IMG/VR virus record: IMGVR_UViG_3300042479_000659 | Length of the DNA: 64,000 nt | Reading direction: 5' to 3' (one strand) | From: an uncultured virus (IMG/VR IMGVR_UViG_3300042479_000659) | Lineage: Duplodnaviria > Heunggongvirae > Uroviricota > Caudoviricetes | In this document: piece by piece, positions 46,155 through 60,873 of the stretch | Layout: every line of letters begins with the position of its first letter | How positions within the stretch are numbered: position 1 is the first letter of the stretch | Program-made: the position numbers and the translations under genes | Notes under the pieces: model-generated | Databases searched by the model: none | Told to the model about the DNA's origin: nothing | What the model saw: only the letters and a program-made list of their open reading frames with translations

Positions 46155-46167
46155 AAAAATTCTTTAC

Positions 46168-46241: not shown

Positions 46242-46247
46242 AAAAAC

Positions 46248-46400: not shown

Positions 46401-46415
46401 TTTGTAACTTTAAAA

Positions 46416-46490: not shown

Positions 46491-46508
46491 GTGTTTCTAT
46501 TTATATCG

Positions 46509-46595
46509 TGGTACGAGTGGCCGGAATCGAACCGGCATGCCTTTTAAAGCGAGAGATTTTAAGTCTCTTGTGTCTACCTATTTCACCACACTCGC
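46509..46595 (-). tRNA. tRNA-Leu(TAA)
   Basis: AGAGA-CTTAAAA-TCTCT, long variable arm, CCA. Confidence 0.9.
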
Positions 46596-46652
46596 ATTTC
46601 TAACTTGTATATATTATACAATAAATCGAGTTAATTGTCAACCTCTAAGAGA

Positions 46653-47848: not shown

Positions 47849-47858
47849 AATTTTCTCC

Positions 47859-48482: not shown

Positions 48483-49021
48483 TACAGAGTCTCGCCACCT
48501 ACTGTGCGGTTACATGCACACAGTTCACCTGTTTGCAATGCATCCAATACACGAAGTGTTTCTTCTGGGCTACGACCCACGTTCAAGTTGTTCACAGTAA
48601 CGTGTTGAATTTCATTGCTTGGATCCACAATGAATGTTGCACGTAATGCCGCACCTGCTGGAGTATAGAACACACCTAGTTGTTCAATCAAGCTCAACTC
48701 ACCACGCTGTGTGTCAGCAAACTGATGATGGGTGATCTTCTTTAGATCTGCGTGTGCTGTTTGCCAAGCAACTTTACAAAACTCATTGTCTGTGCTACCT
48801 GTAAGCAATACAGCATCACGATCAGCAAAGTCTGATGCCAACTTGTCATAGGCCACAATCTCTGTTGGGCATACAAACGTAAAATCTTTTGGATAGTAAA
48901 CAATTACTTTCCATTTGCCTTCAAACGATTCGTCTGTAATTGTATAGAAAGCATCTTCTGGTTGTCCGGGACGGACACCTGTGACTGCGAATGGGGCTAA
49001 TTTGTCGCCAACTGTTTTCAT
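48482..49021 (-). CDS. ahpC: Peroxiredoxin AhpC
   Basis: YPKDFTFVCPTEI, RATFIVDP, VGRS..E.LR, GELC; GGAG RBS before ATG 49021. Confidence 0.93.
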   Translation of the reverse strand: MKTVGDKLAPFAVTGVRPGQPEDAFYTITDESFEGKWKVIVYYPKDFTFVCPTEIVAYDKLASDFADRDAVLLTGSTDNEFCKVAWQTAHADLKKITHHQFADTQRGELSLIEQLGVFYTPAGAALRATFIVDPSNEIQHVTVNNLNVGRSPEETLRVLDALQTGELCACNRTVGGETL

Positions 49022-49076
49022 GTTATCTCCTTTGTGTTGAATGAAAATGTTTGCAGAAGTTGTTCTGCATGTGTGT

Positions 49077-49162
49077 ATTGTACAGTTATTTACATGAGAA
49101 ATCAACCATCTCTCATGGTTTCTACTGAATATATTTCTATGGCTGCCATAGAAAAAATCAAT
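49077..49162 (-). promoter_or_regulatory. ahpC promoter with upstream OxyR/LysR-like box
   Basis: TTGATT-N17-TACAAT (49105-49077); ATTG-N7-CTAT-N7-ATAG at 49162-49137. Confidence 0.55.
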
Positions 49163-49226
49163 AAAGAAAACCCGCCAAAAGGGGTTGGGTGGGTATTTTA
49201 AACTAGCTCAGAAGCGTGGGTCTTGC

Positions 49227-50546: not shown

Positions 50547-50569
50547 GCCATTGGATTTTGTCTTTGAAT

Positions 50570-50905
50570 AAAAGGTAATTTAATTCTGTTACGAGGATAA
50601 ATTACCAAAAACCCTAGGCAGTGTTTAGACTGCCAATGCTTCCTTGGCTGTACGAGCAGAGAACTTGACGTTCTTACCAGAAACAGTTACGGTTTTGTTT
50701 ACGTTTGCATTTACGTTTTTTGCTTCTTCGGCCGAGTTTCCCCAACCCTACGGGTTTCACATTCCCGAGCTGTCCACTTCAATACTTCTGACCCAATCGA
50801 TAGCCTGGTCACCCCCACCTAAATATACCTTATACACTTAGGTGGAGGTGGCGGGAGTCGAACCCGCGTCTTGAATCCATTTTTATCGGCTTCATACAGC
50901 AATAA
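50570..50905 (-). ncRNA. ssrA: Circularly permuted (two-piece) tmRNA
   Basis: Acceptor piece with T-arm and CACCTCCACC (ends 50841) precedes the GGGGGTG 5' end (50816); G3-U70 pair; tag ANVNKTVTVSGKNVKFSARTAKEALAV* at 50708-50625; terminal hairpin plus U run. Confidence 0.85.
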
Positions 50906-50919
50906 CACTTATTTATAAT

Positions 50920-50994
50920 TGGTTGCGGGGGAAGGACTCGAACCTCCGGCTTCCAGGTTATGAGCCTGGCGGTCTACCACTGACGTACCCCGCG
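50920..50994 (-). tRNA. tRNA-fMet(CAT), initiator-type
   Basis: C1:A72 mismatch, CCAGG-CTCATAA-CCTGG, CCA. Confidence 0.85.
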
Positions 50995-51000
50995 ATAAAT

Positions 51001-51090
51001 TGGCGGAAGCGGTGAGATTCGAACTCACGAGGGACGTTAATCCCTGCTGGGTTAGTAATCCAGTGCCATCGGCCACTCGGCCACGCTTCC
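51001..51090 (-). tRNA. tRNA-Ser(ACT)
   Basis: Long variable arm, G73, loop TT-ACT-AA, CCA. Confidence 0.8.
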
Positions 51091-51100
51091 TACAGTTGTT

Positions 51101-51334
51101 TTATGGCAAAATTTCGCTGGATAACACACCAGGTTGTGTGGCTACCCAGTTTGTGTATTCAGTTGCTCTTTCAAGCGTGGGCCATGTTCTTTCAACAGTT
51201 CGATTACCGTTTTCGAGTAGTATCTCTGTTGGCCACTCACCAATCCCTTCTCTCCATGTTATCTCTTTGAGAACATTTTTTGCGGCCTCTGTTAATACGT
51301 ATCCTGCTTCTACGAGTATTTTTGTTTTATACAT
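51101..51334 (-). CDS. Hypothetical protein
   Basis: 77 aa, AAGGA RBS. Confidence 0.6.
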   Translation of the reverse strand: MYKTKILVEAGYVLTEAAKNVLKEITWREGIGEWPTEILLENGNRTVERTWPTLERATEYTNWVATQPGVLSSEILP

Positions 51335-51357
51335 TATATTTTCCTTTAATAAATGTG

Positions 51358-51858
51358 CTAGAATTTTTCATTGATTCTGGCACGATAACTTGCAGTTGAT
51401 AATCCTTTAAACCGATCTGCCGCATAACTGGCAGCAAATGCATTGGGTTTAACTGATGGAGTTACATTACACGTTCCTTTAATGTAGCCAACAGCCTGTG
51501 ATATTACACAACTTGACCCATATTTATTGTCTGGATTGATATCTAAATGTACTTCAACATGACGATTTTCTAATACTTCGCCCAATTTCAAATACAGTTC
51601 CGATACTTTGTAAACTTCATTCATCAGACGCATACTTGGACGTGATGTTTTTTGATCAAAGTCCCGTTCACGATGTACTTCACCAAACAGTTTGCACCCA
51701 CTGTTACCATTGATATGCACCACAACTGCCAACACATAATCAGCATACCAAACACCGTTTACACGATGCCGCACAGAATCACACCCAAGATAAATCTTAG
51801 TCTCGGGAGTTTGTTCTTCAATGAACTTTTTTACTTTAACAAGATTTATCTTTTCCAT
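51358..51858 (-). CDS. RNase H-like YkuK family protein
   Basis: IYLGCDS, RLMNEV, EVHLDIN, AASYAAD. Confidence 0.8.
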   Translation of the reverse strand: MEKINLVKVKKFIEEQTPETKIYLGCDSVRHRVNGVWYADYVLAVVVHINGNSGCKLFGEVHRERDFDQKTSRPSMRLMNEVYKVSELYLKLGEVLENRHVEVHLDINPDNKYGSSCVISQAVGYIKGTCNVTPSVKPNAFAASYAADRFKGLSTASYRARINEKF

Positions 51859-51870
51859 AATATTGTACCT

Positions 51871-51955
51871 TGGTGCGGATGGTGAGACTCGAACTCACAC
51901 GCCTTTCGGCGACGGCTTCTAAGACCGTTGCGGCTACCAATTACGCCACATCCGC
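51871..51955 (-). tRNA. tRNA-Leu(TAG)
   Basis: ACGGT-CTTAGAA-GCCGT, variable arm, CCA. Confidence 0.9.
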
Positions 51956-51966
51956 ATTGTTTTTAT

Positions 51967-52902
51967 TTATTGACCGAGTTTTGTTGCAAATGATTCAAAC
52001 GTGCGGTCCATGGTTTTGATATTTTGCAAATCTAATTTGTAGTCACCAGACTTACTGACCAGATGTTTTTGAACCAATTCAGGCATGGCCAGTTTGATTG
52101 CTTGATTCAGGTCCTTGACAACTTGATCTCGCACTTCCCGAGGAGTGTCTTTTCTTATAAAGAAACTGTATCCTGCCACTAAGTTTTGATAGTCAGAGAA
52201 TCCGGGACTTGTTAAATTAGGCAAATCTGGAAAGTCAGTTGACTTCTTGTTGTCAAACACAAACAGCGGCTTTAGTGTTCCGGCAGTGATGTGTTGATTA
52301 ATATTACCGTAGCTGATAACAGCAAAGTCAAGTTGATTGTTTAAAATATCCACAATTACCTGAGGTATACTTTTGTAGTTGACCAAAATTCCTTTGACTT
52401 TCATCTTGTCTATGGCCAATGATCCGTAAATGTGAAGAGGACTTCCTGCTACAGTGCTACCATATGTTAGTCCTTTTTGTTTGCCTAGTTCTGCTAGCTC
52501 AGTGAGATTCTTGATGTTTCTTTTGCTGTTAGTAACCAATACCCATTGTGGAGAATAGAAATGTGACACTGGTTCAAAATGCTGTTCGTAATCAAATCCT
52601 GTTGATGGTTTTGCACTGGCATAGGCAGTTGATGCGTAGAACAAAATTGTATGCCCGTCTGCAGGGGCCGACATCACATGTTGAGACGCTATGGCAGCGG
52701 CTCCGCCGGGTTTGTTCATTACTACAACGCCAGATTTCCAGATTCCGTCTAGTTTTTCTGCCACAGTTCTTGTGATAAGATCAAGTCCGCCGCCTGCTCC
52801 TGTGGGAACAATTAGTTGTACAGGTTTCTCAGGAAACGACATTGCAGTGGCGCTGACACTTATAACAAGTGCGGTTAATAATGTTGATACAATTTTCTTC
52901 AT
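51967..52902 (-). CDS. Bug/TctC tripartite tricarboxylate transporter substrate-binding protein
   Basis: Signal peptide; FPEKPVQLIVPTGAGGGLDLITR, NKPGG, APADGHTI. Confidence 0.85.
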   Translation of the reverse strand: MKKIVSTLLTALVISVSATAMSFPEKPVQLIVPTGAGGGLDLITRTVAEKLDGIWKSGVVVMNKPGGAAAIASQHVMSAPADGHTILFYASTAYASAKPSTGFDYEQHFEPVSHFYSPQWVLVTNSKRNIKNLTELAELGKQKGLTYGSTVAGSPLHIYGSLAIDKMKVKGILVNYKSIPQVIVDILNNQLDFAVISYGNINQHITAGTLKPLFVFDNKKSTDFPDLPNLTSPGFSDYQNLVAGYSFFIRKDTPREVRDQVVKDLNQAIKLAMPELVQKHLVSKSGDYKLDLQNIKTMDRTFESFATKLGQ

Positions 52903-52923
52903 GGTTGCTTTCTTTAAAATTAA

Positions 52924-54057
52924 TTACGATCCAATGTCGTATTCCTTGCTCCAAATAAACGGCAAGTCATATAACATATTTTGCCGTTTAGTTCGAAATA
53001 GATTGTTATGCTTAAAATGATTTACTAGTGTTGTTTGGTTGTATAGATTATATACGCCTTTTAAGAAGTTTGCGGCCTCGGGTCGTCCAGATTTTAGATC
53101 TTCAACCAGGAATCTACTCTCCGGTGATGCTGTCTCGATGTCTTGCCAAGAACCGGTTAGATTTACATTTGAAATTCCTGCTAAACGTTCACTTAGCATT
53201 TTCTGCGATCGACTCACTCCATAGTTTAATTCCTGGTGTCGCCCGCAATCTAAACTCATTTGTTCAAATCCTTTGGTGGTTTTTTTATAATTGGCCTCAG
53301 CCAGCCCGCCATTGTGTAACTTTAGTTGATTTTGTTGAATGTACTTTTTAACATTGTTCTTGAACACATGACTTTGTTTGACAGCCAGCACTGGATCTAA
53401 AAAGAACGCTTCGATATGTGGCCTATTAAACCCTTGATCTAAAACCATTGCCAGTTGTCTACTAAACCATCGACCGTTTCTATAAACAAGTCTGGGTTTT
53501 TCGTACCCTGTGATGCATTTGAAAGTGTGCCCGCTGTACTTTTGGTATACCGCATCTTCTGTTGTGGTAAATGGAAGATTAAAATATCTAACTAACTCTG
53601 TTCTCTTGCTATTAAAAATCCAGTCTTCGCTGTTGACAAATGGATTGTGTTTGTTAGGTGCTCGGGCATCCAGCAACGTTATTTCGGTATGCGGATCCCA
53701 GTGATTCTTTTTTACCCATTCATACGCACTGGTAGGGAACCATGCAAATTCTTCTGAGGCAGCAACAATTATCTCATCTAGATGTATTTTATGTTTGGCA
53801 AATACATTGTAAATGGTTTGGCTGTCAAACCCACCACTGTAGTATAGCACTAATTTTTCGTATTTGTTCCTGAGCTCAAAGGCTCGATACGCCATTAAAT
53901 TATCAAATGAATCAGTTGATTCTGTAGTCCAGTCAACCTTATCGTATTGATCTTCGTTTAGATAGAACTTGACTGGATGCCCAGTTTCAGTAGAGTTTAT
54001 CCAAGCAAGATATACATTGTTATAAGGTTGGTTGTTTACAGTGTAAAAAGCGTTCAT
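52924..54057 (-). CDS. Adenine nucleotide alpha hydrolase (PP-loop)-like protein
   Basis: LVLYYSGGFDS PP-loop; GYEKP. Confidence 0.55.
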   Translation of the reverse strand: MNAFYTVNNQPYNNVYLAWINSTETGHPVKFYLNEDQYDKVDWTTESTDSFDNLMAYRAFELRNKYEKLVLYYSGGFDSQTIYNVFAKHKIHLDEIIVAASEEFAWFPTSAYEWVKKNHWDPHTEITLLDARAPNKHNPFVNSEDWIFNSKRTELVRYFNLPFTTTEDAVYQKYSGHTFKCITGYEKPRLVYRNGRWFSRQLAMVLDQGFNRPHIEAFFLDPVLAVKQSHVFKNNVKKYIQQNQLKLHNGGLAEANYKKTTKGFEQMSLDCGRHQELNYGVSRSQKMLSERLAGISNVNLTGSWQDIETASPESRFLVEDLKSGRPEAANFLKGVYNLYNQTTLVNHFKHNNLFRTKRQNMLYDLPFIWSKEYDIGS

Positions 54058-54073
54058 TTATTTTTATTTAAAT

Positions 54074-54149
54074 TGGCTCCCCAACGTGGGCTCGAACCAC
54101 GGACCAACAGATTAACAGTCTGCTACTCTACCGACTGAGCTATTGGGGA
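54074..54149 (-). tRNA. tRNA-Asn(GTT)
   Basis: GCAGA-CTGTTAA-TCTGT, CCA. Confidence 0.9.
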
Positions 54150-54155
54150 ATAATC

Positions 54156-54311
54156 TTACTTGCGTTCTTTAGACGAGAATGATGCAGGTGTTGCCTGTGC
54201 ATCAATCATGGCTCTTTTAAATCCGTTGCGATCGTGTTGATCTTTAAACTTTAACAATGCCATCAATGTTTTTGTACGTTTGCTTAGTTTGAATGCTGAT
54301 GTTGTTTTCAT
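54156..54311 (-). CDS. 51-aa basic hypothetical protein
   Basis: MKTTSAFKLSKRTKTLMALL...KRAMIDAQ...; AAGGA RBS, TAAATA upstream. Confidence 0.65.
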   Translation of the reverse strand: MKTTSAFKLSKRTKTLMALLKFKDQHDRNGFKRAMIDAQATPASFSSKERK

Positions 54312-54362
54312 TTGTTTCCTTTGGGGTATTTATTTGGGTAAAATTGCGATATAAATATCTGT

Positions 54363-54548
54363 ATGCAAACGCAAACACAAGATTTTATTTCAGTTAGTGG
54401 ACATCTACAAGTGCATCTGTCACTTAGTGAGTATAACACATCTTATATTTTTGTCAATGATATTTTCAATGATCGGCTAATTATGCGTTACTTTAGTGAT
54501 CATGAAACTGCTGTCAATTGGATCAAGACTCTTAAAGACCACTATTGA
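54363..54548 (+). CDS. Hypothetical protein
   Basis: 61 aa, TATAAATA-N5-ATG. Confidence 0.6.
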   Translation: MQTQTQDFISVSGHLQVHLSLSEYNTSYIFVNDIFNDRLIMRYFSDHETAVNWIKTLKDHY

Positions 54549-54556
54549 TCATATGC

Positions 54557-54632
54557 TGGGGAGAAGTATGGGAATCGAACCCATATTAACGGAATCACAA
54601 TCCGTGGTGTTGACCTTTACACTAACTACTCC
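54557..54632 (-). tRNA. tRNA-His(GTG)
   Basis: ACGGA-TTGTGAT-TCCGT, G-1:C73, CCA. Confidence 0.9.
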
Positions 54633-54637
54633 GTAAT

Positions 54638-54712
54638 TGGTCTCGCTTGCAAGAATCGAACTCACATTCAAGAGGTAGAAGCTCTTTGTATTATCCATTA
54701 TACTAAAGCGAG
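54638..54712 (-). tRNA. tRNA-Arg(TCT)
   Basis: AAGAG-CTTCTAC-CTCTT, CCA. Confidence 0.88.
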
Positions 54713-54714
54713 AA

Positions 54715-54792
54715 TGGCAGAGGGTACTGGATTCGAACCAGTGATCATGGAGTCAAAGTCCAATGCTTTAGGCCAAACTAAGCTAACCCCCA
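54715..54792 (-). tRNA. tRNA-Gln(TTG)
   Basis: TGGA-CTTTGAC-TCCA, G73, CCA. Confidence 0.88.
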
Positions 54793-54803
54793 GTAATAAT
54801 TGT

Positions 54804-54877
54804 TGGAGCGGGATAGGAGAATCGAACTCCTGACTAAACCTTGGCAAGGTTTCGTTTGACCATTAAACTAATCCCGC
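54804..54877 (-). tRNA. tRNA-Gly(GCC)
   Basis: AAACC-TTGCCAA-GGTTT, U73, CCA. Confidence 0.9.
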
Positions 54878-54880
54878 ATG

Positions 54881-54955
54881 TGGTGGTGATGAGTAGAATC
54901 GAACTACCACTGGACTCCGTATGAAGGAGGCGCACTACCGTTATGCTACATCACC
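54881..54955 (-). tRNA. tRNA(CAT): elongator Met or Ile2
   Basis: CTCC-TTCATAC-GGAG, G1-C72, CCA; Met vs Ile2 not resolvable by eye. Confidence 0.8.
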
Positions 54956-54957
54956 GA

Positions 54958-55692
54958 TCAGTCGAAGTAGTATTCAAGATCAGAGAGACCAGCCACGTTA
55001 GAATAATCTAAGCCGTGTATGTAAGACTCGCGACGCAAGTCATTTCCGGGAACCAAGTCTCGGCGAATGTGTGTCAATTCCATACATCCAAAAACGCCAT
55101 CAGTGTCATAGCCCACGTGATTGTTGCCGTGTACGTGTACAATGGCATAGTGCTCTTGCCACCGCTCCACAGCCTGTTGCCATTGTTTGCTACGATTGGC
55201 ACAGTTGTGCCATTCCATTGCAACGCCCACAATACGGTCGCGATGTTGTACGATACTTTCAATCAAACTGTATTCACCACCTTCAATGTCCATCTTGATG
55301 AACACCTGGTCTACGCCCATTCTGTCTAGTGCTCGTGCAAAGTTTTCTGGCCCAATGAACTCTGGCCAATGTTTTACGTTACCTTGAAAGAATTCATCGT
55401 ACATGGCTCGAATATCCAAGTGTCCACGAACAGGCGTATTGATGCTGATACGCATGGTATCTCTGGTGACACTGGCGTCATACATCTGAATTGGATCCTG
55501 TGGCTTGAGATCATGCCAGTCTTGGTCAAATGTAAAATCGTCACCTAGACCAAAACTTAGTAGGCCCTGTGCTTGTTCCACTGCTGAACGTGGCACAATG
55601 TAGCCGCCATCCATTTTTCCACCTAATCTAATTAGGTCAGGCACTGCAACGGGGCAGAGCCAATGTAGTTCTTGGGGTAGTTTAATTTTCAT
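54958..55692 (-). CDS. FkbM-like SAM-dependent methyltransferase
   Basis: RLGGKMDGGY, LSFG, FIKMDIEGGE, HVHGNN. Confidence 0.75.
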   Translation of the reverse strand: MKIKLPQELHWLCPVAVPDLIRLGGKMDGGYIVPRSAVEQAQGLLSFGLGDDFTFDQDWHDLKPQDPIQMYDASVTRDTMRISINTPVRGHLDIRAMYDEFFQGNVKHWPEFIGPENFARALDRMGVDQVFIKMDIEGGEYSLIESIVQHRDRIVGVAMEWHNCANRSKQWQQAVERWQEHYAIVHVHGNNHVGYDTDGVFGCMELTHIRRDLVPGNDLRRESYIHGLDYSNVAGLSDLEYYFD

Positions 55693-55810
55693 AATTTTAT
55701 TTATTGACTGGTTTTACACACCATATAAAAGCACACTATATGCGCCCTGGTTGTTAAGCGTCACTAACAGCCTGCAACCACGCAGGGTAGCCGTGTAATG
55801 TGCTTTTATA

Positions 55811-55884
55811 TGGTAGGGGTGCAGGGGAACGATCCCTGTTTTACGGATTAAAAGTCCGTTACTTCACCTTAAAGTTTCACCCCC
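55811..55884 (-). tRNA. tRNA-Lys(TTT)
   Basis: ACGGA-CTTTTAA-TCCGT; atypical T-loop ATCGTTC; CCA. Confidence 0.85.
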
Positions 55885-56006
55885 AATGGTTCTTGTTTTT
55901 GTGCTCGTCGCAAAGCCTTGTTGGTCTTGCGATGCGCACCTGCTTTGCGAAATAGTGCAAGACGAACGAAGCAGTTACGTTCGCGCACGATCGGTTTATG
56001 TTTCAT
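55869..56006 (-). CDS. 45-aa basic protein whose stop codon lies inside tRNA-Lys
   Basis: AGGA RBS; MKHKPIVRERNCFVRLALFRKAGAHRKTNKALRRAQKQEPLGVKL*. Confidence 0.65.
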   Translation of the reverse strand: MKHKPIVRERNCFVRLALFRKAGAHRKTNKALRRAQKQEPLGVKL

Positions 56007-56025
56007 ACAATTTCCTTTTATAAAA

Positions 56026-56099
56026 TGGTGGAGGATGCGAGAGTCGAACTCGCGAATGAGCCTTGCAAAGGCACCGGTTTCCCACTAGCCTAATCCCCC
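56026..56099 (-). tRNA. tRNA-Ala(TGC)
   Basis: G3-U70, GCC-TTTGCAA-GGC, CCA. Confidence 0.88.
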
Positions 56100-56103
56100 A
56101 ATA

Positions 56104-56302
56104 TGCTCTGCATCCCCCGGCGGTAATTATAGAGTATCAAGATATGACGCTATCATACCCATCACACACTCCTTCCACCCGCTTCCCGGCAGGGACCGTT
56201 CTCGCATTGCCAGCGGCCTTTGGGTTCGAAGACTACCACCCGTAGCTGTCACACTACTTCTCATCGTCAGGGTCTGACTATCCGGAGACACCCGGAACGT
56301 TC
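56104..56302 (-). ncRNA. Unassigned ~200-nt structured RNA between tRNA-Tyr and tRNA-Ala
   Basis: GC-rich, non-coding; ends pair (GTGTCTCCGG / CCGGGGGATGC; GTTC / GAGC). Confidence 0.5.
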
Positions 56303-56386
56303 TGGTGGAGATGATAGGGATCGAACCTATTGTGACTAAGTCGGAGGATTTACAGTCCCCTGCCATACCATTACGGCGGCATCTCC
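56303..56386 (-). tRNA. tRNA-Tyr(GTA)
   Basis: GGGGA-CTGTAAA-TCCTC, variable arm, CCA. Confidence 0.9.
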
Positions 56387-56391
56387 ATGTG

Positions 56392-56466
56392 TGGTACTCG
56401 ATAGCGGAGTCGAACCGCTCTTGCCTGGATGAAAACCAGATGTCCTAACCGATAGACGAATCGAGC
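56392..56466 (-). tRNA. tRNA-Glu(TTC)
   Basis: TCTGG-TTTTCAT-CCAGG, CCA. Confidence 0.9.
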
Positions 56467-56545
56467 AAAAAGAGGAGAGCCACGGTTGCAGGACCTAGTG
56501 TCTCGTTGCCGAGAGAAGTGTCCAGGCGATGCGGCTCTCAAAACT

Positions 56546-56620
56546 TGGCGGTCTGTGGGGGAATCGAACCCCCGTAAGTGGATAGACAATCCACAGTAAT
56601 AACCTCTATACGAACAGACC
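56546..56620 (-). tRNA. tRNA-Asp(GTC)
   Basis: GTGGA-TTGTCTA-TCCAC, G73, CCA. Confidence 0.9.
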
Positions 56621-56628
56621 AAAATCTA

Positions 56629-56843
56629 CTATTTTAAAACATACTAAAGGAACCATTGTGCATCTATGTCTACCTATAGGACCGTCTCCTATAGACCTGC
56701 ACGGTCATTACTGCCTACATGCTCCGCCGCTTTTCTGGACATTTCTGCCCGGTTTCATAGACCTAGCTTGAGCGTGGGCGGCCCCACAGTCCTCGCCTTA
56801 GATCCCTAACGGTGTAGGTAACCTTTAATACGTTTTAAAATAG
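56629..56843 (-). ncRNA. Unassigned ~215-nt structured RNA closed by a ~25-bp stem
   Basis: CTATTTTAAAACGTATTAAAGG ... CCTTTAGTATGTTTTAAAATAG terminal helix; internal hairpins GGGCA-GAAA-TGTCC, CTATAGG..CCTATAG. Confidence 0.55.
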
Positions 56844-56873
56844 CAACCCTTGCAGGTTACCAAAAACAACAAC

Positions 56874-57075
56874 TTTTTAAAGAACGTCTAGTTAATTTCC
56901 TAACTAGTCTCTAGTATAACACAATGGCTATATCTAGTCAATTTGTTTTGCAAAGTCCCTACACTGTGTAGGGTTATTTGCAGATCCAGCTAATTTCTTA
57001 ACTTGTTTCTATTATAGCAAAACGGCATTAAATGGTCAAGTTAGTACTTTAGTATACCCTACAGCAAGTAGGGTT
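56874..57075 (-). promoter_or_regulatory. Tandem sigma70 promoters plus boxB/boxA-like antitermination signal
   Basis: TTGACC-N17-TATAAT (57039-57011), TTGACT-N17-TATACT (56941-56913), GAAA hairpin 56907-56888, CGTTCTTTAAAAA 56886-56874. Confidence 0.65.
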
Positions 57076-57080
57076 ATTAT

Positions 57081-57154
57081 TGGCGTACCTCCAGGGACTC
57101 GAACCCCGACGAACAGTTTTGGAGACTGTGATGCTGCCATTACATTAGAGATAC
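57081..57154 (-). tRNA. tRNA-Trp(CCA)
   Basis: ACAGT-CTCCAAA-ACTGT, G73, CCA. Confidence 0.88.
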
Positions 57155-57160
57155 ATTATT

Positions 57161-57234
57161 TGGTAGCCTGTAGAGGTAACGATCCTCTGTCGCTCGATTA
57201 TCAGTCGAGTGCTCTACCATTGAGCTAACGGGCT
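57161..57234 (-). tRNA. tRNA-Ile(GAT)
   Basis: CTCGA-CTGATAA-TCGAG; atypical T-loop ATCGTTA; CCA. Confidence 0.88.
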
Positions 57235-57241
57235 AAATTTT

Positions 57242-57316
57242 TGGCGGGTCCTGCAGGAATCGAACCCACACCACTTGGTTCGAAGCCAAGCATGATATCC
57301 ATTTCACCAAGGACCC
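57242..57316 (-). tRNA. tRNA-Arg(TCG)
   Basis: CTTGG-CTTCGAA-CCAAG, CCA. Confidence 0.88.
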
Positions 57317-57320
57317 TGAT

Positions 57321-57396
57321 TGGTAGGAACGATTGGACTCGAACCAACCACACCCAGATTTTCAGTCTGGTGCTCTACCTGATGAGCTACGTTCCC
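57321..57396 (-). tRNA. tRNA-Phe(GAA)
   Basis: CCAGA-CTGAAAA-TCTGG, CCA. Confidence 0.9.
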
Positions 57397-57402
57397 ACGA
57401 CG

Positions 57403-57492
57403 TGGCGGTGTGACTCGGACTCGAACCGAGAACCCGGATTACGCCGAGCGACGGTTTAGCAAACCGCTCCGATACCATTACGGGACCACACC
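57403..57492 (-). tRNA. tRNA-Ser(GCT)
   Basis: GCGGT-TTGCTAA-ACCGT, long variable arm, G73, CCA. Confidence 0.9.
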
Positions 57493-58092
57493 GTTGATCA
57501 TTTTCAAATACTCTTGTTGTAATTCTTCCCAATTTAAAATTATGTCTTTGTACCGATACGGACTTGGTTGATGTACATGACCAACTTGCAATTTGTTGTA
57601 GCGTAAATCTAATTTATCAGCAACAAATTTTGCACCTTTATCTATTAGATCTTCATAATAGATGGTTACAACTTTTTTATAACCGGACAAGATTAAATTA
57701 CTTGCCCACATCAAATTATTCACTAACTCAATAAATTCTGCTTTATCAAAAACCAGTGGCTCTACAATCTTGTTGCTGTAATCTTTACCACTCCATTCAT
57801 CAACTAGTAGAGCTACGCACATACTCATCAGTTGGGCAAATATATCTCGTCTGAGACTCAGTATTAATGTCACAGTTGATTTATCTAAATCTCTAATTTC
57901 TATGAGATTATGAAGATGTATCACTGTGTTTTGATCTTTAATACCCTGCTGATATTTTTCTTTGTTGGCTGGGAGCCATATTGCATATGCGTCAGCTAAT
58001 CCCCCTTTAGTGCCTATAGGTCCGGTCAACATTTCTAATATGATGTGACTTCCGGTTCTTCCAGGAGAATAAATTACATATATGTTATTCAT
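57478..58092 (-). CDS. Sulfotransferase-like (P-loop, Stf0-like) protein
   Basis: SPGRTGSHII (5'-PSB-like), RRDIFAQLMS (3'-PB-like), IYYEDL; TAAATA-N5-ATG start; stop lies inside tRNA-Ser(GCT). Confidence 0.6.
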   Translation of the reverse strand: MNNIYVIYSPGRTGSHIILEMLTGPIGTKGGLADAYAIWLPANKEKYQQGIKDQNTVIHLHNLIEIRDLDKSTVTLILSLRRDIFAQLMSMCVALLVDEWSGKDYSNKIVEPLVFDKAEFIELVNNLMWASNLILSGYKKVVTIYYEDLIDKGAKFVADKLDLRYNKLQVGHVHQPSPYRYKDIILNWEELQQEYLKMINGVVP

Positions 58093-58117
58093 TGTTGTAT
58101 TTAAAGATTGATATTGT

Positions 58118-58209
58118 TGGCGGAAGACGGAGGAGTCGAACCCCATCCCTGTTAAGAGAACCTGGTTTTCAAGGCCAGTCGCAGGACCAACCCCGCTGCA
58201 TCATCTTCC
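58118..58209 (-). tRNA. tRNA-Ser(TGA) with 8/4 acceptor/T-stem
   Basis: GGAAGATG/CGTCTTCC 8-bp acceptor, GGGG/CCTC 4-bp T-stem, loop CT-TGA-AA, G73, CCA. Confidence 0.8.
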
Positions 58210-58218
58210 TAAAATATG

Positions 58219-58980
58219 TTAAAGATTTTTAAAAACTTTTTTTATAATTGCACTGCGATCCAGTTTGGAACTGGCACCCAATACAATGACTGCGTACTGT
58301 TGTTTGTTGTGTTCTACCAGCATGGCCACACACCATCCAGCAAGATTGGTAAATCCAGTCTTGCTCACGTCTACACGGTCAAACTCTGTCAACAGTGGAC
58401 GGGATGTGTGAATGAGATTCACAGAGCTGCCACGAGTTCGATCCGACTTTGTTAACTGTACAGTAGACTGTCCGCTGGCTTCTTGTATAAACCAATAGCT
58501 GGCAGCAATCTGTACCATTTCTACTAGATCCCGTGCAGTGGTCACATTGAACACACCTAGCCCCGAAGGATCTACAAATTTAGTATCTTGAAGATTCCAC
58601 ATCCGGGCATGTCGATTCATTTCAGACACAAAGGCAGATCGGCCACCAGGATAGTTCTGTGCAATGGTTTCGGCTGCTCCGTTGTCACTGCTAACCAGCA
58701 TGGCCAGCAACAACTGTTCTCTGGTGTATCTGCCAGGCGGCAATCGACTACCAGTGTTTTTTCTCAGCACCAACTGCTGTTGAAGATCTCTGTTGTGATC
58801 CAATGCAACCATGGCAGTCATCAACTTGGTCACACTGGCCATTGATCTGATTTGATCACTATTTTGGCTCAGTTCCGTGCGCTGTGCATTGATGTTGTAG
58901 ACCAACACAGTGGGCTCACGTGCGTGGGCCGCCGCATTGGATAAGACTGTACAAAAAAACACTGTGGCAAATAGTTTCAT
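58219..58980 (-). CDS. Peptidase S11 D-alanyl-D-alanine carboxy/endopeptidase (PBP7-like)
   Basis: Signal peptide, ASVTKLM (SxxK), SDN (SxN), SKTGFT (KTG). Confidence 0.9.
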   Translation of the reverse strand: MKLFATVFFCTVLSNAAAHAREPTVLVYNINAQRTELSQNSDQIRSMASVTKLMTAMVALDHNRDLQQQLVLRKNTGSRLPPGRYTREQLLLAMLVSSDNGAAETIAQNYPGGRSAFVSEMNRHARMWNLQDTKFVDPSGLGVFNVTTARDLVEMVQIAASYWFIQEASGQSTVQLTKSDRTRGSSVNLIHTSRPLLTEFDRVDVSKTGFTNLAGWCVAMLVEHNKQQYAVIVLGASSKLDRSAIIKKVFKNL

Positions 58981-58998
58981 ATCTTTATTTTGTAAAAT

Positions 58999-59073
58999 TG
59001 GAACACAGGACAGGACTCAAACCTGCATGATACGGATTTGCAATCCGTTGCGTAATCATTCCGCCACCTGTGC
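58999..59073 (-). tRNA. tRNA-Cys(GCA)
   Basis: ACGGA-TTGCAAA-TCCGT, U73, CCA. Confidence 0.88.
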
Positions 59074-59265
59074 ATATACGTCAAACACACTGTTTCCAAT
59101 GTGTGTATTAAAGCACTCTAAAATACTTAGGCTGCCTGTTCTTAAAGAATGCTTTAATACGAACTAATTTTTAGTCCCACAAGAGGGATTCCATCCTAGT
59201 CGCCGCCCGTTTGTGCTTGTTTATAGTGTAGCACAGGACCTCGTTTCCTGTCAACACTTTAGGAT

Positions 59266-59427
59266 CTATGCTGGAAGTTGATTCTTGACTCGCATGCGAG
59301 TTTCGAGCATCAACCTAGCACGTTCCAACTTTTCCCGAATCAACTTTTCACGTTGTTCCGGTGTCAGCGTGTGCTCTGTTGTGTACTTTACTTCACGCAT
59401 TCGTTGTTTTAAATCTAATTTCTTCAT
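59266..59427 (-). CDS. 53-aa basic helical protein
   Basis: AAGGA RBS; MKKLDLKQRMREVKY...EKLERARLMLE...; first ORF after the terminator. Confidence 0.6.
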   Translation of the reverse strand: MKKLDLKQRMREVKYTTEHTLTPEQREKLIREKLERARLMLETRMRVKNQLPA

Positions 59428-59440
59428 TTTTCCTTTTCTA

Positions 59441-59475
59441 AAAACAAAAAACCCTAGGGTTTTTAATCCTAGGGT
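59441..59475 (-). terminator. Intrinsic terminator (putative attenuator)
   Basis: ACCCTAGG-ATTAAAAAC-CCTAGGGT followed by TTTTTGTTTT. Confidence 0.8.
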
Positions 59476-59502
59476 CCTTGGAGTTTGTGTGTAAACTTTT
59501 AT

Positions 59503-59643
59503 TTACGACATGGTCTCCTGGACCCTGGTACCCTCTGGTGTGCGATCATATGACATGCTATTAATTGCCGACCAAATAGAGGGCGCGAAGCCGGCCTGTT
59601 TGGCTGAACAATTTGACATAGAATGTAATACGTTTGTTTGCAT
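59503..59643 (-). CDS. Putative 46-aa leader peptide containing all 20 amino acids
   Basis: MQTNVLHSMSNCSAKQAGFAPSIWSAINSMSYDRTPEGTRVQETMS*; between promoter and terminator; 3' codons carry the antiterminator arm. Confidence 0.6.
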   Translation of the reverse strand: MQTNVLHSMSNCSAKQAGFAPSIWSAINSMSYDRTPEGTRVQETMS

Positions 59644-59691
59644 TTTTGTTTCTTTAAATTTACATACACCTTTTTATTGGCGCATGTGTGT

Positions 59692-59720
59692 ATTGTATAG
59701 GTTTATTTATACAAGGTCAA
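59692..59720 (-). promoter_or_regulatory. Dual promoter: sigma70 with nested late TATAAATA
   Basis: TTGACC-N17-TACAAT with TATAAATA (59711-59704) in the spacer. Confidence 0.7.
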
Positions 59721-59778
59721 CCACTTGGTTGCTCAAAATACAAATTTTTTTCAAGATATTTGCCTTAATAAGTACACT

Positions 59779-60873
59779 ATGCAACAGGCATTCAACGGAG
59801 TACACAGCGGCGAGATTTGGAATCAAAGCCAATGTCTAGTACACGAATACAACATCAATAACACAATATATCAAATACTACGCGATACCGGGTTTAGTGT
59901 AACTGACAATCCACGGATATGGAAAAAATCAAACCAAACAGTGATCGTCTGCCTGGTTGACGATATACGAAGTTGTAGTACAGACTATCACAGTGACTTG
60001 CCCTACTTGTTTGATGCCAATACCACAGTCATAACCGACAACTATATCACTTGTCCCACACAGTACCGTGTGGTAAGATTGCCCGCTAGTTTCTTGGGAA
60101 TCTATCACTATGTGCCCAGCAATTACACATGGCGGCCAGAACGAGATTTTTCTTTTGCAGTAAATCGAATTGACCAACGCAGATTTATGCTGATGTTGGA
60201 AATCGGACTCAGAGTACATTTGCACAAAGGCCATGTAAATTTCAACTGTTATCGTCCAGGAAATTCCGTAGTGTCAGACCCTGCTCTTATTTCCACAACC
60301 CGGGCATTAGAACATTGGAATGACCATTGGAACCAGACCAGCAACGAAGACAAATCAAAATATCAAAAAAGTTATGAATTGCTAACAGCACAAATGCCTG
60401 TGCGCAATTATGAAATAGAACATGATGAAATTTTTAATCGGTCATATGTTAACATTGTGGCCGAAACCTACAGCAGTGACAACAACATATCACTGAGTGA
60501 AAAAATATTCAGAGCATTAGTAACACCTGCTCCGTGGACCGTGTCGTCGGGTCGATACACAGTGGCCTATTTAACTAGCTTGGGATTTGATACTGTGTCA
60601 GATCTAATAGACCACAACCATTACGATAGACTAATAGAAGTGCAAGAGAAGCAACGCATATTTGTATGGAAAAGCCTTGAAACTATTAAATCATTGAAGT
60701 CTCAAGATCTAGCTCTGCTACAAGACAGATGTCAACGTGCTGCCACACACAATCAAACTGTATTGGCCGTAATGGCTGCTCGGTGGCCCAATGACTTTGC
60801 TCAGTGGATCAGCATACTTACACAAACGCTAACCAATCCACAGGCGATCGGGCCCATTCAGTATCAAATTTAA
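59779..60873 (+). CDS. Putative glycosyltransferase-like protein ('TEK' family)
   Basis: VNIVAETY...LSEKIFRALVTPAPW...LGFD...YD. Confidence 0.5.
   Translation: MQQAFNGVHSGEIWNQSQCLVHEYNINNTIYQILRDTGFSVTDNPRIWKKSNQTVIVCLVDDIRSCSTDYHSDLPYLFDANTTVITDNYITCPTQYRVVRLPASFLGIYHYVPSNYTWRPERDFSFAVNRIDQRRFMLMLEIGLRVHLHKGHVNFNCYRPGNSVVSDPALISTTRALEHWNDHWNQTSNEDKSKYQKSYELLTAQMPVRNYEIEHDEIFNRSYVNIVAETYSSDNNISLSEKIFRALVTPAPWTVSSGRYTVAYLTSLGFDTVSDLIDHNHYDRLIEVQEKQRIFVWKSLETIKSLKSQDLALLQDRCQRAATHNQTVLAVMAARWPNDFAQWISILTQTLTNPQAIGPIQYQI

What the first reader, a model, noticed from the sequence alone, without database searches (positions are those of the whole stretch)
59441..59720. Candidate 'pan-tRNA-sensing' leader-peptide attenuator at the head of the phage tRNA region
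Seen (minus strand), in order: promoter (59720-59692), 46-codon ORF (59643-59503), intrinsic terminator (59475-59441), then the tRNA region. All 20 amino acids occur within the first 37 codons, with C, W, H, Y, F, K, L and D once each. Codons 40-43 (AGGGTCC-A-GGAG, 59526-59515) are complementary to CTCC-AA-GGACCCT (59483-59471), which overlaps the 5' arm of the terminator, so the two hairpins are mutually exclusive. Established: this is the geometry of ribosome-mediated attenuation (trp/his), where a ribosome at the stop codon masks the antiterminator and upstream stalling frees it. Classic leaders carry runs of one amino acid. Inference: a leader that samples every amino acid would trigger read-through into a tRNA set covering all 20 amino acids when any host tRNA is depleted or cleaved. 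Caveats: the RBS is weak, and internal promoters (~59255, 57039, 56941) could bypass it.
Basis: partly seen in the sequence, partly recalled or inferred. Interest (0 to 1): 0.9.

Follow-up and report, generated by a model that had tools for sequence, protein, structure and literature searches.

The report
Phage attenuator with all-twenty-amino-acid leader
A tiny gene at the head of a giant phage's tRNA cluster encodes a peptide of about 46 residues that keeps nearly all 20 amino acids across hundreds of relatives and ends inside an RNA switch between stopping and reading on, so it looks like a sensor that opens the phage's tRNA region when translation falters.

Summary
On the minus strand lie a sigma-70-type promoter, a 46-codon ORF, a long hairpin and an intrinsic terminator that share five bases.

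Comparative data support the attenuator reading, by sequence evidence only.
- Relatives occur in freshwater giant-phage contigs. All are uncultured, and nothing matched among isolated phages.
- The ORF stays open at 41-64 codons in 108 distinct variants.
- Both helices are kept with compensatory changes. The shared base covaries with both of its partners.
- The hairpin averages -23.7 kcal/mol against -13.2 for the terminator, so termination should need a ribosome to melt the hairpin.
- All 20 amino acids occur in 92 of 108 variants, and in 107 of 150 independent representatives at 50% identity or less. Chance gives about 3%. Cys, His and Tyr move between columns yet stay at about one copy.
- The unit is single-copy in three near-complete genomes. 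It sits before or within the main tRNA array.

- The terminator is followed first by a conserved 53-aa ORF and a roughly 190-nt structured RNA that is not in Rfam. The tRNAs come after these.
- Coverage of all 20 amino acids is not absolute.
- Glu sits at the edge of the sensing zone.

No expression or function was tested. The closest known system is the mycobacterial whiB7 uORF attenuator.

The parts
59692..59720 (-). Sigma-70-type promoter (TTGACC, 17-nt spacer, TACAAT). The start site near 59685 is inferred.
   Evidence: scores it 10 of 12. TTGAC is present in all 38 distinct upstream regions printed, each followed by a -10-like hexamer about 17 nt on (read by eye).
59663..59686 (-). Hairpin at the 5' end of the transcript. 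In most other clades it is a 6-7 bp stem with a GNRA-type loop.
   Evidence: Sequence. The stems differ between clades while pairing is kept, judged by eye on the alignments. No formal pair count was made.
59503..59643 (-). Leader ORF: 46 codons plus TAA, holding all 20 amino acids.
   Evidence: It stays open at 41-64 codons in 108 distinct variants. The stop is TAA in 103 and TAG in 5. In the core, substitutions by codon position are 56/54/104.
59535..59575 (-). Candidate hairpin inside the ORF, with the Trp-Ser-Ala-Ile codons pairing with the Asp-Arg-Thr-Pro-Glu codons. It may be a polymerase pause or synchronising hairpin (inferred).
   Evidence: RNAalifold on a codon-aware alignment of 104 variants gives 12 pairs, each paired in 75-95% of sequences. 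Changes are mostly one-sided. The pairing would explain the invariant synonymous sites seen.
59471..59526 (-). Antiterminator hairpin.
- P1: 59526-59520 with 59477-59471.
- P2: 59518-59515 with 59483-59480.
- P3 (apical): 59510-59488, with the stop codon in its 5' strand.
   Evidence: P1 is paired in 99.3% of cells. On 89 distinct sequences, 15 of 20 pairs show compensatory changes, in 317 cells against 110.8 in shuffles.
59441..59475 (-). Intrinsic terminator: stem 59475-59468 with 59458-59451, then a T-run. It shares 59475-59471 with antiterminator helix P1.
   Evidence: It is paired in 100% of cells, with two covarying pairs. There is one copy per locus in the 82 of 98 loci fetched so far that hold the pattern.
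59266..59427 (-). ORF2: 53 aa with a good Shine-Dalgarno sequence. It is the first gene reached on read-through and its function is unknown.
   Evidence: It is present 72-80 nt after the leader stop in 18 of 20 representative loci. It has no Pfam or NCBIfam family. PHROG 20536 (unknown function) matches at E = 1.3e-4.
59074..59262 (-). Conserved structured RNA between ORF2 and the first tRNA.
   Evidence: alignment by eye. RNAalifold on 17 loci predicts 31 pairs, 17 of them with compensatory changes. No Rfam family matches.
58999..59073 (-). tRNA-Cys, the first of 25 tRNA genes on this strand (45998-59073). Together they cover all 20 amino acids.

Best explanation
This is a ribosome-mediated transcription attenuator carried by a family of uncultured freshwater giant phages.

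Proposed mechanism:
- A strong host-type promoter makes a short transcript whose 41-52-codon ORF is translated.
- The last codons and the stop codon lie inside a stable three-helix hairpin, the antiterminator. Its 3' strand supplies five bases of the 5' arm of an intrinsic terminator.
- If a ribosome runs through to the stop codon while the polymerase transcribes the terminator, the hairpin is melted. The terminator then forms and transcription ends after about 245 nt.
- If the ribosome is absent, or stalls upstream of the hairpin, the hairpin forms first. The polymerase then reads on into a 53-aa ORF, a structured RNA and the tRNA array.
- The leader is under selection to contain every amino acid, mostly once. 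Shortage or cleavage of almost any aminoacyl-tRNA would therefore stall the ribosome and open the region.

Shown here: the anatomy, the conservation, the covariation of both helices, the compositional selection and the synteny with tRNAs.

Inferred: that the ORF is translated, that the ribosome flips the switch, that single codons suffice as sensors, and that read-through transcripts yield tRNAs.
For: 1. Anatomy is as described.

2. The two helices are mutually exclusive and both are conserved.
- Antiterminator P1 is paired in 99.3% of cells and the terminator in 100%, on 41 distinct sequences.
- The shared base covaries with both partners. The triples are G-C-G 19, A-U-A 14, four wobble intermediate types totalling 7, and one mismatch. 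A shared C is never opposite an A.
- The same held in a second set of 72 sequences.

3. The whole hairpin is supported on 89 distinct sequences. Cells paired: 85.9%, against 69.7% in shuffles and at most 52% in slid controls. Fifteen of 20 pairs have both-sided changes. The alignment was fitted to the model.

4. Energetics. Every one of 42 sequences folds to the same P1-P2-P3 hairpin with the stop codon inside it. Mean free energy is -23.7 kcal/mol against -13.2 for the terminator. A second set gave 71 of 72 and -23.7 against -13.0.

5. Signs of translation.
- The ORF is open in all 108 distinct variants.
- Third-position substitutions are in excess in the core (56/54/104). The tail that forms the hairpin shows no codon periodicity (72/79/70).
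- One clade has its ATG only 10 nt after the -10 hexamer, so the mRNA is nearly leaderless.

6. Compositional selection.
- All 20 amino acids occur in 43 of 43 peptide-ascertained variants, in 92 of 108 after RNA-motif ascertainment, and in 107 of 150 representatives at 50% identity or less.
- A multinomial null gives 3.4% complete. Two of 73 six-frame ORFs of similar length in the window are complete.
- In a phylogeny-aware simulation, 0 of 1000 runs keep all tips complete, with a mean of 20 of 42 incomplete.
- Cys is present exactly once in 89 of 104 variants yet spread over 23 alignment columns. His and Tyr are never absent and each spreads over 17 columns.

7. Context.
- A same-strand tRNA gene lies downstream in 50 of 72 loci. 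Twenty-one of the other 22 hold at most 625 nt of downstream sequence.
- The same holds in 60 of 73 loci of the second set.
- The element occurs once in each of three genomes that are 99-100% complete, at the upstream edge of or inside the main tRNA array. Those genomes encode tRNAs for 19-20 amino acids.

8. Precedent. In the mycobacterial whiB7 uORF attenuator, removing the single Trp codon significantly weakened induction by Trp deprivation (passages of PMC10274678 read).
Against: - No expression, ribosome or termination data exist. Metatranscriptome contigs cover the terminator region but cannot show RNA ends or levels.
- The Shine-Dalgarno sequence is weak or distant: AAAGAAAC in the window, and AAGGA 11-14 nt before the ATG elsewhere.
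- Completeness is not absolute. Sixteen of 108 variants and 43 of 150 representatives lack 1-3 residue types, Cys most often.
- An analogous unit in L018 has a 33-37-codon ORF with only 15 residue types.
- Glu usually first appears 9 nt before the hairpin. All 20 types lie at least 9 nt upstream of it in 72 of 108 variants, but at least 12 nt upstream in only 16 of 108.
- The genome whose leader lacks Cys and Leu still encodes tRNA-Cys and tRNA-Leu.
- Leader codons are not enriched for those the window's own tRNAs read: 32 of 46, against 80% in long ORFs.
- Some clades have a consensus promoter immediately before the first tRNA. The tRNAs therefore need not depend on read-through.
- The strongly conserved core, including its synonymous sites, is not needed by a pure composition sensor.
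- No anti-antiterminator was found, so an untranslated transcript should read through.
Confidence: 0.6

Rival explanations
1. The unit is a general translation-state sensor rather than a sensor of individual amino acids. The same ribosome-flipped switch reports only whether ribosomes translate at all, for instance after host shut-off, ribosome-targeting defence or a translation block. On this view the all-20 composition is not what is sensed.
For: The default state without a ribosome is read-through, because the hairpin is about 10 kcal/mol more stable and is made first. No anti-antiterminator was found. Glu lies at the edge of the sensing zone. Leaders lacking Cys or Leu occur in a genome that has those tRNAs.
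Against: This does not explain why 71-85% of very diverse 41-52-residue peptides keep all 20 amino acids. It also does not explain why Cys, His and Tyr relocate but persist at about one copy.
Confidence: 0.15
2. The ORF is an ordinary small phage protein gene ending in a terminator. The long hairpin only stabilises the 3' end or is a processing site, and the ORF product has a function of its own.
For: The core (C/x-x-A-K-Q-x-G-F-M-P..W..D-R-T-P-E) is conserved, with a third-position excess of substitutions. Many phage early units consist of a promoter, a small gene and a terminator.
Against: The shared base covaries with partners in both helices. A mere 3' stabiliser would not need this. With the hairpin formed the terminator cannot form, so the terminator would be useless unless something opens the hairpin. 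The tail codons evolve without codon periodicity. The compositional completeness is also left unexplained.
Confidence: 0.12
3. The conserved core is an arrest peptide of the tnaC or secM type. The nascent chain would stall the ribosome in response to a small molecule or factor, and that stall sets the switch.
For: The conserved Trp and the D-R-T-P-E motif lie just upstream of the hairpin. Conservation is specific to the sequence.
Against: The synonymous sites of these codons are also invariant, and the codons can pair as a hairpin. That points to an RNA-level constraint. In the wider family only G18, W24, D33 and R34 are at least 90% conserved. The compositional signal is left unexplained.
Confidence: 0.08
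4. The region is an untranslated structured RNA, such as a riboswitch-like or protein-binding element, and its reading frame is incidental.
For: Synonymous sites in the core are invariant. Several helices covary. The Shine-Dalgarno sequence is weak.
Against: The frame is open in 108 of 108 variants despite many indels. The stop codon always sits in the apical helix. One clade is nearly leaderless, with the ATG kept. Third-position substitutions are in excess in the core.
Confidence: 0.04

Closest known systems
Mycobacterial whiB7 uORF-mediated attenuator
   Same: A uORF is followed by alternative antiterminator and rho-independent terminator structures. Efficient uORF translation gives termination, and stalling gives read-through. 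The uORF's amino-acid content decides which starvations are sensed. The M. smegmatis uORF holds every amino acid except Cys, and removing its single Trp codon significantly weakened induction by Trp deprivation (passages of PMC10274678 read).
   Different: whiB7 is bacterial and regulates a transcription factor. Its uORF is 25-40% Ala, and its composition varies and is not kept complete; the M. tuberculosis uORF lacks several amino acids. Here the element is phage-borne and near-completeness is conserved across hundreds of variants. The region it controls holds a 53-aa ORF, a structured RNA and tRNA genes.
Classical amino-acid operon attenuators (trp, his, leu, thr, ilv, pheA leaders of enterobacteria; recalled)
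   Same: A promoter-proximal leader ORF, with the antiterminator's 5' arm near the ORF's end. Antiterminator and terminator are mutually exclusive, and a ribosome at the stop codon favours the terminator.
   Different: Those leaders carry runs of one or a few regulatory codons and control the matching biosynthetic genes. They also have a 1:2 hairpin that causes termination when the leader is not translated. Here there is no codon run and no anti-antiterminator was found. Ser is about twofold enriched (13.3% against 5.9%). None of the Rfam families matched, whatever leader models that library holds.
Antibiotic-sensing leader peptides with attenuators (for example the erm, cat and vmlR classes; recalled)
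   Same: A short leader ORF whose stalled ribosome remodels downstream RNA structure.
   Different: Those stalls depend on a drug and on a specific nascent-peptide motif. Nothing here points to a drug, and the feature under selection is composition.
T-box riboswitches
   Same: Both link tRNA status to a choice between terminator and antiterminator.
   Different: T-boxes bind uncharged tRNA directly without translation and have defined Stem I and T-box motifs. No Rfam T-box match was found, and here an ORF is conserved.

Membership tests
Ribosome-mediated transcription attenuator (leader-peptide type) | A short ORF lies close behind a promoter, upstream of the regulated genes. | tested here: met
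   Promoter at 59720-59692 and ORF at 59643-59503. Both are conserved in relatives.
Ribosome-mediated transcription attenuator (leader-peptide type) | An intrinsic terminator lies between the leader ORF and the downstream genes. | tested here: met
   An 8-bp G+C-rich stem and a T-run at 59475-59441. Paired in 100% of cells on 41 distinct sequences, with compensatory changes.
Ribosome-mediated transcription attenuator (leader-peptide type) | An alternative antiterminator helix shares bases with the terminator, and both are conserved. | tested here: met
   Five bases are shared (59475-59471). The shared base covaries with both partners.
Ribosome-mediated transcription attenuator (leader-peptide type) | The antiterminator's 5' arm is placed so that a ribosome at the stop codon masks it and an upstream stall frees it. 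| tested here: met
   The arm begins at about codon 34-46 in 105 of 108 variants (55-57 in three peptides of 62-64 aa). The stop codon lies inside the apical helix, 52-63 nt before the T-run. The geometry fits, but the size of the ribosome footprint is recalled, not measured.
Ribosome-mediated transcription attenuator (leader-peptide type) | Regulatory codons are enriched for the sensed amino acid. | tested here: not met
   There is no run of any codon. Instead all 20 amino acids are present, mostly 1-3 times each, with Ser about twofold enriched.
Ribosome-mediated transcription attenuator (leader-peptide type) | Read-through rises when the ribosome stalls in the leader. | not testable with these tools
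   This needs coupled transcription-translation assays, reporters or Term-seq. Metatranscriptome contigs were uninformative.
whiB7-type broad-sensing uORF attenuator | A uORF of diverse composition is followed by alternative antiterminator and terminator structures. | tested here: met
   The family features were taken from PMC10274678.
whiB7-type broad-sensing uORF attenuator | The uORF is Ala-rich and lies upstream of a WhiB7 transcription-factor gene in Actinobacteria. | tested here: not met
   Ala makes up 6.1% of the family. The downstream gene is a 53-aa ORF of no known family. The context is a phage.
Rfam cis-regulatory leaders and T-box | A match to a curated covariance model. | tested here: not met
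   In window 58900-60000 the only match at or above its gathering score was tRNA. The other five matches at E up to 10 lay far below their gathering scores. In eight related loci, tRNA and one permuted tmRNA reached their gathering scores. A beta_tmRNA and two Plastid-ycf2 matches lay below theirs.

The most novel reading that the evidence does not exclude
Giant phages carry a dedicated sensor of all aminoacyl-tRNAs. The sensor is a 'pangram' leader peptide, evolutionarily held at about one codon for each of the 20 amino acids. Its translation gates an attenuator at the entrance of the phage's own tRNA region. Depletion or cleavage of any host tRNA, by starvation, host shut-off or an anticodon-nuclease defence, would stall the ribosome and switch on a 53-aa protein, a new structured RNA and the phage tRNA set. 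Restored decoding would switch it off again, closing a homeostatic loop.
Probability: 0.45. Interest if true: 0.95.

Novelty: new variant of a known kind. Interest (0 to 1): 0.85.

Why it matters
- **Regulation of phage tRNA genes.** Why large phages carry near-complete tRNA sets, and how they regulate them, is an open question. Recent work lists tRNA-cleaving host defences and phage tRNAs that evade them. I saw only the search listing and the start of the abstracts, for example PMC11555353 and PMC12409363. A conserved translation-gated switch at the entrance of the tRNA region would be, as far as my searches show, the first regulatory element tied to phage tRNA arrays. It would make the idea that phage tRNAs respond to tRNA loss directly testable.

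- **A new signature for sensor leaders.** Selection for compositional completeness in a roughly 46-residue peptide, with rare residues that move but persist, is an unusual evolutionary signature. It could be used to find other sensor leaders.

- **Parts for synthetic use.** The promoter and terminator are generic sigma-70-type and intrinsic elements. The element may therefore work as a portable reporter of translation stress.

Tried and rejected
**Searches that found nothing useful**
- Isolated-phage collection: no DNA match to 59150-59950. No protein match to the 382-aa neighbour. Only chance-level hits (E = 2-3) to a leader peptide. The family is therefore known to me only from uncultured contigs.
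- The window's own assembly is not held. The nearest record, G001, is a 57.8-kb fragment.
- Pfam, PHROGs and NCBIfam hold no family for the leader. ORF2 gave only a weak PHROG of unknown function.
- The protein Atlas search for ORF2 scored 0.82 at best, which is uninformative.
- Rfam gave nothing for the leader or for the downstream structured RNA.
- Our own earlier notes hold nothing for this genome.

**Expression**
- Contigs of four metatranscriptome runs from four studies cover 59432-59488 and relatives of it. Some run on past the T-run.
- Contigs cannot show RNA ends, strand or level, so I draw no conclusion.

**Predictions that failed**
- I expected leaders lacking an amino acid to sit in genomes lacking that tRNA. 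The complete genome G002, whose leader lacks Cys and Leu, has both tRNAs. Fragment G003, whose leader lacks Ala and Cys, also has both. Two records are too few to settle this.
- I expected leader codons to be matched to the phage's own tRNAs. They are not: 32 of 46 are decodable, against 80% in long ORFs.

**ORF-internal structure**
- RNAalifold on 43 sequences proposed one ORF-internal hairpin (columns 46-94).
- The wider codon-aware alignment proposed a different one.
- I report only the latter, as a candidate. Neither has strong two-sided covariation.

**Literature**
- Six searches found no description of a phage leader-peptide attenuator, of an all-20 leader, or of regulation of phage tRNA arrays by attenuation.
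- Subscription-only papers are not covered by these searches.
Full report
**What is in the window**

Read on the minus strand, 59720-59441 holds the following elements.
- A promoter-like site, TTGACC-17-TACAAT, at 59720-59692. It scores 10 of 12.
- A hairpin at the start of the transcript, 59686-59663.
- An ATG ORF of 46 codons, 59643-59503.
- A terminator hairpin, ACCCTAGG / CCTAGGGT, with a T-run at 59475-59441.

The ORF holds all 20 amino acids, eight of them once each. The stretch 59526-59515 inside the ORF is complementary to 59483-59471, which overlaps the terminator's 5' arm. The minimum-free-energy fold of 59435-59560 uses that pairing (z = -4.06; 0 of 200 shuffles fold as well). The pattern GGGTCC-N15-45-GGACCC occurs once in 64 kb, against 0.02 expected.

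**Relatives**

The isolated-phage collection holds nothing similar. Uncultured contigs do. I collected them in four ways.
- 24 loci through the neighbouring 382-aa protein.
- 22 viral loci and 50 metagenome loci through an alignment of the peptide.
- 80 further viral loci through the terminator RNA motif alone.
- A profile search of 1.84 billion representative proteins, which found 201 clusters at E up to 0.001.

Several contigs are 345-365 kb and are rated 99-100% complete, so these are giant phages. Names of the metagenome runs that hold parts of the stretch are mostly freshwater. I did not pursue habitat.

**The ORF is kept as an ORF**

- In 72 sequences (the window and 71 loci; L083, cut by its contig end, was left out) there are 43 distinct peptides of 45-51 residues.
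- Adding the set found by RNA motif gives 108 distinct peptides of 41-64 residues, all open. The stop is TAA in 103 and TAG in 5.
- I counted substitutions by codon position along a minimum spanning tree of the first 43.

| Region | Position 1 | Position 2 | Position 3 |
|---|---|---|---|
| Whole ORF | 200 | 206 | 261 |
| Conserved core | 56 | 54 | 104 |
| Variable N-terminus | 72 | 73 | 87 |
| Tail that forms the hairpin | 72 | 79 | 70 |

- The core therefore behaves like coding sequence, and the tail behaves like RNA structure.
- In one clade the ATG follows the -10 hexamer by only 10 nt, so the mRNA is nearly leaderless.
- Elsewhere the Shine-Dalgarno sequence is weak or far from the ATG.

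**The two helices**

On 42 tail sequences (41 distinct), antiterminator helix P1 is paired in 99.3% of cells and the terminator in 100%. One base belongs to both helices. When it is C (19 sequences), both partners are G. When it is U (22 sequences), the partners are A or G, except for one C in the hairpin arm. The states with G-U wobble pairs look like evolutionary intermediates. The switch between the two states recurs inside at least two clades, seen by eye: L067-L070, and L071-L074 against L077.

Every one of the 42 sequences folds to the same three-helix hairpin. The stop codon lies in the 5' strand of the apical helix, and the apical sequences differ between clades.

A covariance model aligned 98 instances, 89 of them distinct.
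- 85.9% of cells are paired, against 69.7% in shuffles and at most 52% in slid controls.
- 15 of 20 pairs have changes on both sides.
- 317 cells carry such changes, against 110.8 ± 11.4 in shuffles.
- That alignment was fitted to the model, so it leans towards the structure. The P1 and terminator counts come from a plain MAFFT alignment.

The hairpin averages -23.7 kcal/mol and the terminator -13.2. The second set gave -23.7 and -13.0. The hairpin is transcribed first and is the more stable of the two. The terminator should therefore form only if something holds the hairpin's 5' arm, and that arm lies in the last codons of the ORF. This is the logic of ribosome-mediated attenuation (recalled from the trp and his systems). 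Read-through is the default when the ribosome is absent or stalled upstream.

**The all-20 property**

| Set | All 20 | 19 | 18 | 17 |
|---|---|---|---|---|
| 43 peptide-ascertained variants | 43 | 0 | 0 | 0 |
| 108 distinct variants, merged | 92 | 14 | 2 | 0 |
| 150 representatives at 50% identity or less, trimmed to the family region | 107 | 38 | 4 | 1 |

The set found by RNA motif, which owes nothing to the peptide, gave 75 distinct peptides from 80 loci. Of these, 58 are complete, and one is a 12-residue mis-call at a contig end. In the representatives, Cys is the type most often missing (22 of 150).

Three nulls put these numbers in context.
- A multinomial draw with the family's own pooled composition gives 3.4% complete and a mean of 17.3 types.
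- Among six-frame ATG-ORFs of 41-52 codons in the window, 2 of 73 are complete, and one of those is the leader itself.
- A phylogeny-aware simulation on the first 43 used site profiles limited to the residues seen in each column, rates calibrated by parsimony, and a FastTree peptide tree started at the window's sequence. It kept all 42 other tips complete in 0 of 1000 runs. The mean was 20 incomplete tips and the 5th percentile was 9.

The reason is visible in the copy numbers over 104 aligned variants.
- Cys occurs exactly once in 89 variants but is spread over 23 columns. The commonest column holds it in only 51.
- His is never absent and occurs once in 88, over 17 columns.
- Tyr is never absent, over 17 columns.

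Rare residues move but are not lost. That is what selection for presence, rather than for position, predicts.

**Limits of the all-20 reading**

- Glu usually first appears in the conserved Thr-Pro-Glu, 9 nt before the hairpin. All 20 types lie at least 9 nt upstream of the arm in 72 of 108 variants, but at least 12 nt upstream in only 16 of 108.
- Whether a ribosome waiting for Glu-tRNA leaves the hairpin intact depends on how far its entry channel reaches. I recall about 11 nt from the P-site, which would just allow it. This is recalled, not tested.
- A structurally analogous unit in L018 has the promoter, a nearly leaderless ORF of 33-37 codons, a hairpin and terminator sharing bases, and a stop codon in an apical helix. 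It has only 15 residue types and no ORF2.
- Genome G002, whose leader lacks Cys and Leu, encodes tRNA-Cys and tRNA-Leu.
- In the window, 32 of 46 leader codons can be read by the phage's own tRNAs, against 80% of codons in long ORFs. The seven TCN Ser codons cannot be read by them.
- Ser makes up 13.3% of the family, against 5.9% of the window's long ORFs. The leader may therefore weigh Ser more heavily. This is speculation.

**The conserved core**

The codons GCC AAA CAG GCN GGC TTT ATG CCC, then TGG, then GAT CGY ACA CCA GAG are nearly invariant, even at synonymous sites. On a codon-aware alignment of 104 variants, RNAalifold pairs the Trp-Ser-Ala-Ile codons with the Asp-Arg-Thr-Pro-Glu codons (window 59575-59535). 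It finds 12 pairs, each paired in 75-95% of sequences, with mostly one-sided changes.

I regard this as a candidate hairpin. By analogy with the trp leader it might pause the polymerase until a ribosome arrives. That is inference. It does not overlap the antiterminator arm, so it is not an anti-antiterminator.

**What lies downstream**

- A 50-60-residue ORF with a good Shine-Dalgarno sequence starts 72-80 nt after the leader's stop in 18 of 20 representative loci. In the window it is 59427-59266. It has no known family.
- Next comes a conserved RNA of about 190-250 nt (window 59262-59074). RNAalifold on 17 loci predicts 31 pairs, 17 of them with compensatory changes. It is not in Rfam.
Its -35 and -10 hexamers are degraded in close relatives such as L035, L039 and L040, while the pairing is kept.
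- Other clades do have a consensus promoter just before the first tRNA.
- No terminator-like site on the minus strand lies between 59441 and 58647.

tRNA genes on the same strand follow.
- In 50 of 72 loci they start 424-815 nt after the leader stop (1274 nt in two loci). Of the other 22, 21 hold at most 625 nt downstream, and one (L051) holds about 1.5 kb with no tRNA.
- In the second set, 60 of 73 loci have one. Seven of the 13 without have tRNAs just upstream instead.
- The first tRNA differs between clades: Cys, Tyr, Ile, Asp, Trp and others.
- In three genomes that are 99-100% complete the element occurs exactly once. In two it lies about 240-300 nt upstream of the main array. In the third it lies inside the array.
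- Those genomes encode 28-31 tRNAs for 19-20 amino acids. ARAGORN may have missed a long-arm tRNA-Tyr.
- The window's 25 tRNAs cover all 20 amino acids.

**Comparison with what is known**

The mechanism I propose is ribosome-mediated attenuation. The closest described case is the mycobacterial whiB7 uORF. I read passages of PMC10274678.
- Efficient uORF translation gives a rho-independent terminator, and stalling gives an antiterminator.
- Genes related to 18 of 20 amino acids were hits in their activation screen.
- Converting its single Trp to Ala significantly weakened induction by Trp deprivation.

That work shows that single codons can act as sensors in such a switch. The present element differs in four ways.
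- It is phage-borne.
- Its compositional near-completeness is conserved across a very diverse family. The whiB7 uORF is Ala-rich, and the M. tuberculosis uORF lacks several amino acids.
- It has no run or enrichment of one regulatory residue, beyond a twofold excess of Ser.
- It gates a small ORF, a structured RNA and tRNA genes.

Six literature searches found no description of such an element. I file it as a new variant of a known kind.

**Verdict**

The anatomy and its conservation are shown. So is the selection on composition, within the limits of the null models. The ribosome-flipped switch is a strong inference from structure and energetics. Sensing of individual aminoacyl-tRNAs, and the feed into tRNA expression, are plausible but untested.

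My confidence in the attenuator with a composition-sensing leader is 0.6. The bolder reading, a homeostatic loop that responds to any tRNA loss, gets about 0.45.

Noticed in passing
window 59074-59262 (-); also L035, L040, L045, L047, L058, L065, L076, L081, L084, L085, L088, L089, L096 between ORF2 and the first tRNA: A conserved structured RNA of about 190-250 nt lies directly upstream of the first tRNA. It has invariant motifs, such as a hairpin loop AACGAGG and a stretch AAACGGGCGGC. Seventeen of 31 predicted pairs show compensatory changes in 17 loci, and no Rfam family matches. It may be a stable RNA released with the tRNAs; T4 has small RNAs in its tRNA cluster (recalled).
   Followed up: partly
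window 59266-59427 (-): A conserved ORF of 50-60 aa (motif T-L-T-P-E-Q..K-L-I-Q-D-K..E-R-A) is the first gene after the terminator in 18 of 20 representative loci. It has no known family.
   Followed up: partly
L018:3040-3300 (-): An analogous but diverged unit in a relative: a promoter, a nearly leaderless ORF of 33-37 codons with only 15 residue types, a hairpin and terminator sharing CCCCGGA, and the stop codon in an apical helix. The structured RNA follows directly, with no ORF2.
   Followed up: partly
L071, L074, L077, L082 (upstream of the leader ATG): In this clade the leader ATG lies 10 nt after the -10 hexamer, so the mRNA is nearly leaderless and lacks the 5' hairpin. The unit here sits inside the tRNA array, with tRNA-Met and tRNA-Leu upstream.
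   Followed up: no
window 50534-50932 (-); L068:1-209: ARAGORN calls a permuted tmRNA in the window's tRNA region. In L068, Rfam's permuted-tmRNA model scores 53.6 bits (gathering score 47) about 950 nt upstream of the leader. These phages may therefore also carry a ribosome-rescue RNA.
   Followed up: no
G002 and G005 tRNA regions (L218-L223): ARAGORN reports a tRNA with anticodon CTA, which would read the amber stop codon, in two complete genomes. This may hint at stop-codon suppression or recoding.
   Followed up: no
window 51001-51090 (-): A tRNA-Ser is called with the unusual anticodon ACT. The window has no tRNA that reads the TCN Ser codons, which are the commonest codons of the leader (7 of 46).
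   Followed up: partly
window 58219-58980 (-): A D-alanyl-D-alanine carboxypeptidase (Peptidase_S11, E = 4e-35) with a hydrophobic N-terminus is embedded between tRNA genes.
   Followed up: no
L047, L076, L084, L096 just before the first ARAGORN tRNA: By eye, a tRNA-Tyr-like gene with a long variable arm and an encoded CCA end lies there. ARAGORN did not call it, so the 'missing Tyr' in two of the genome tRNA tallies may be a detection gap.
   Followed up: no
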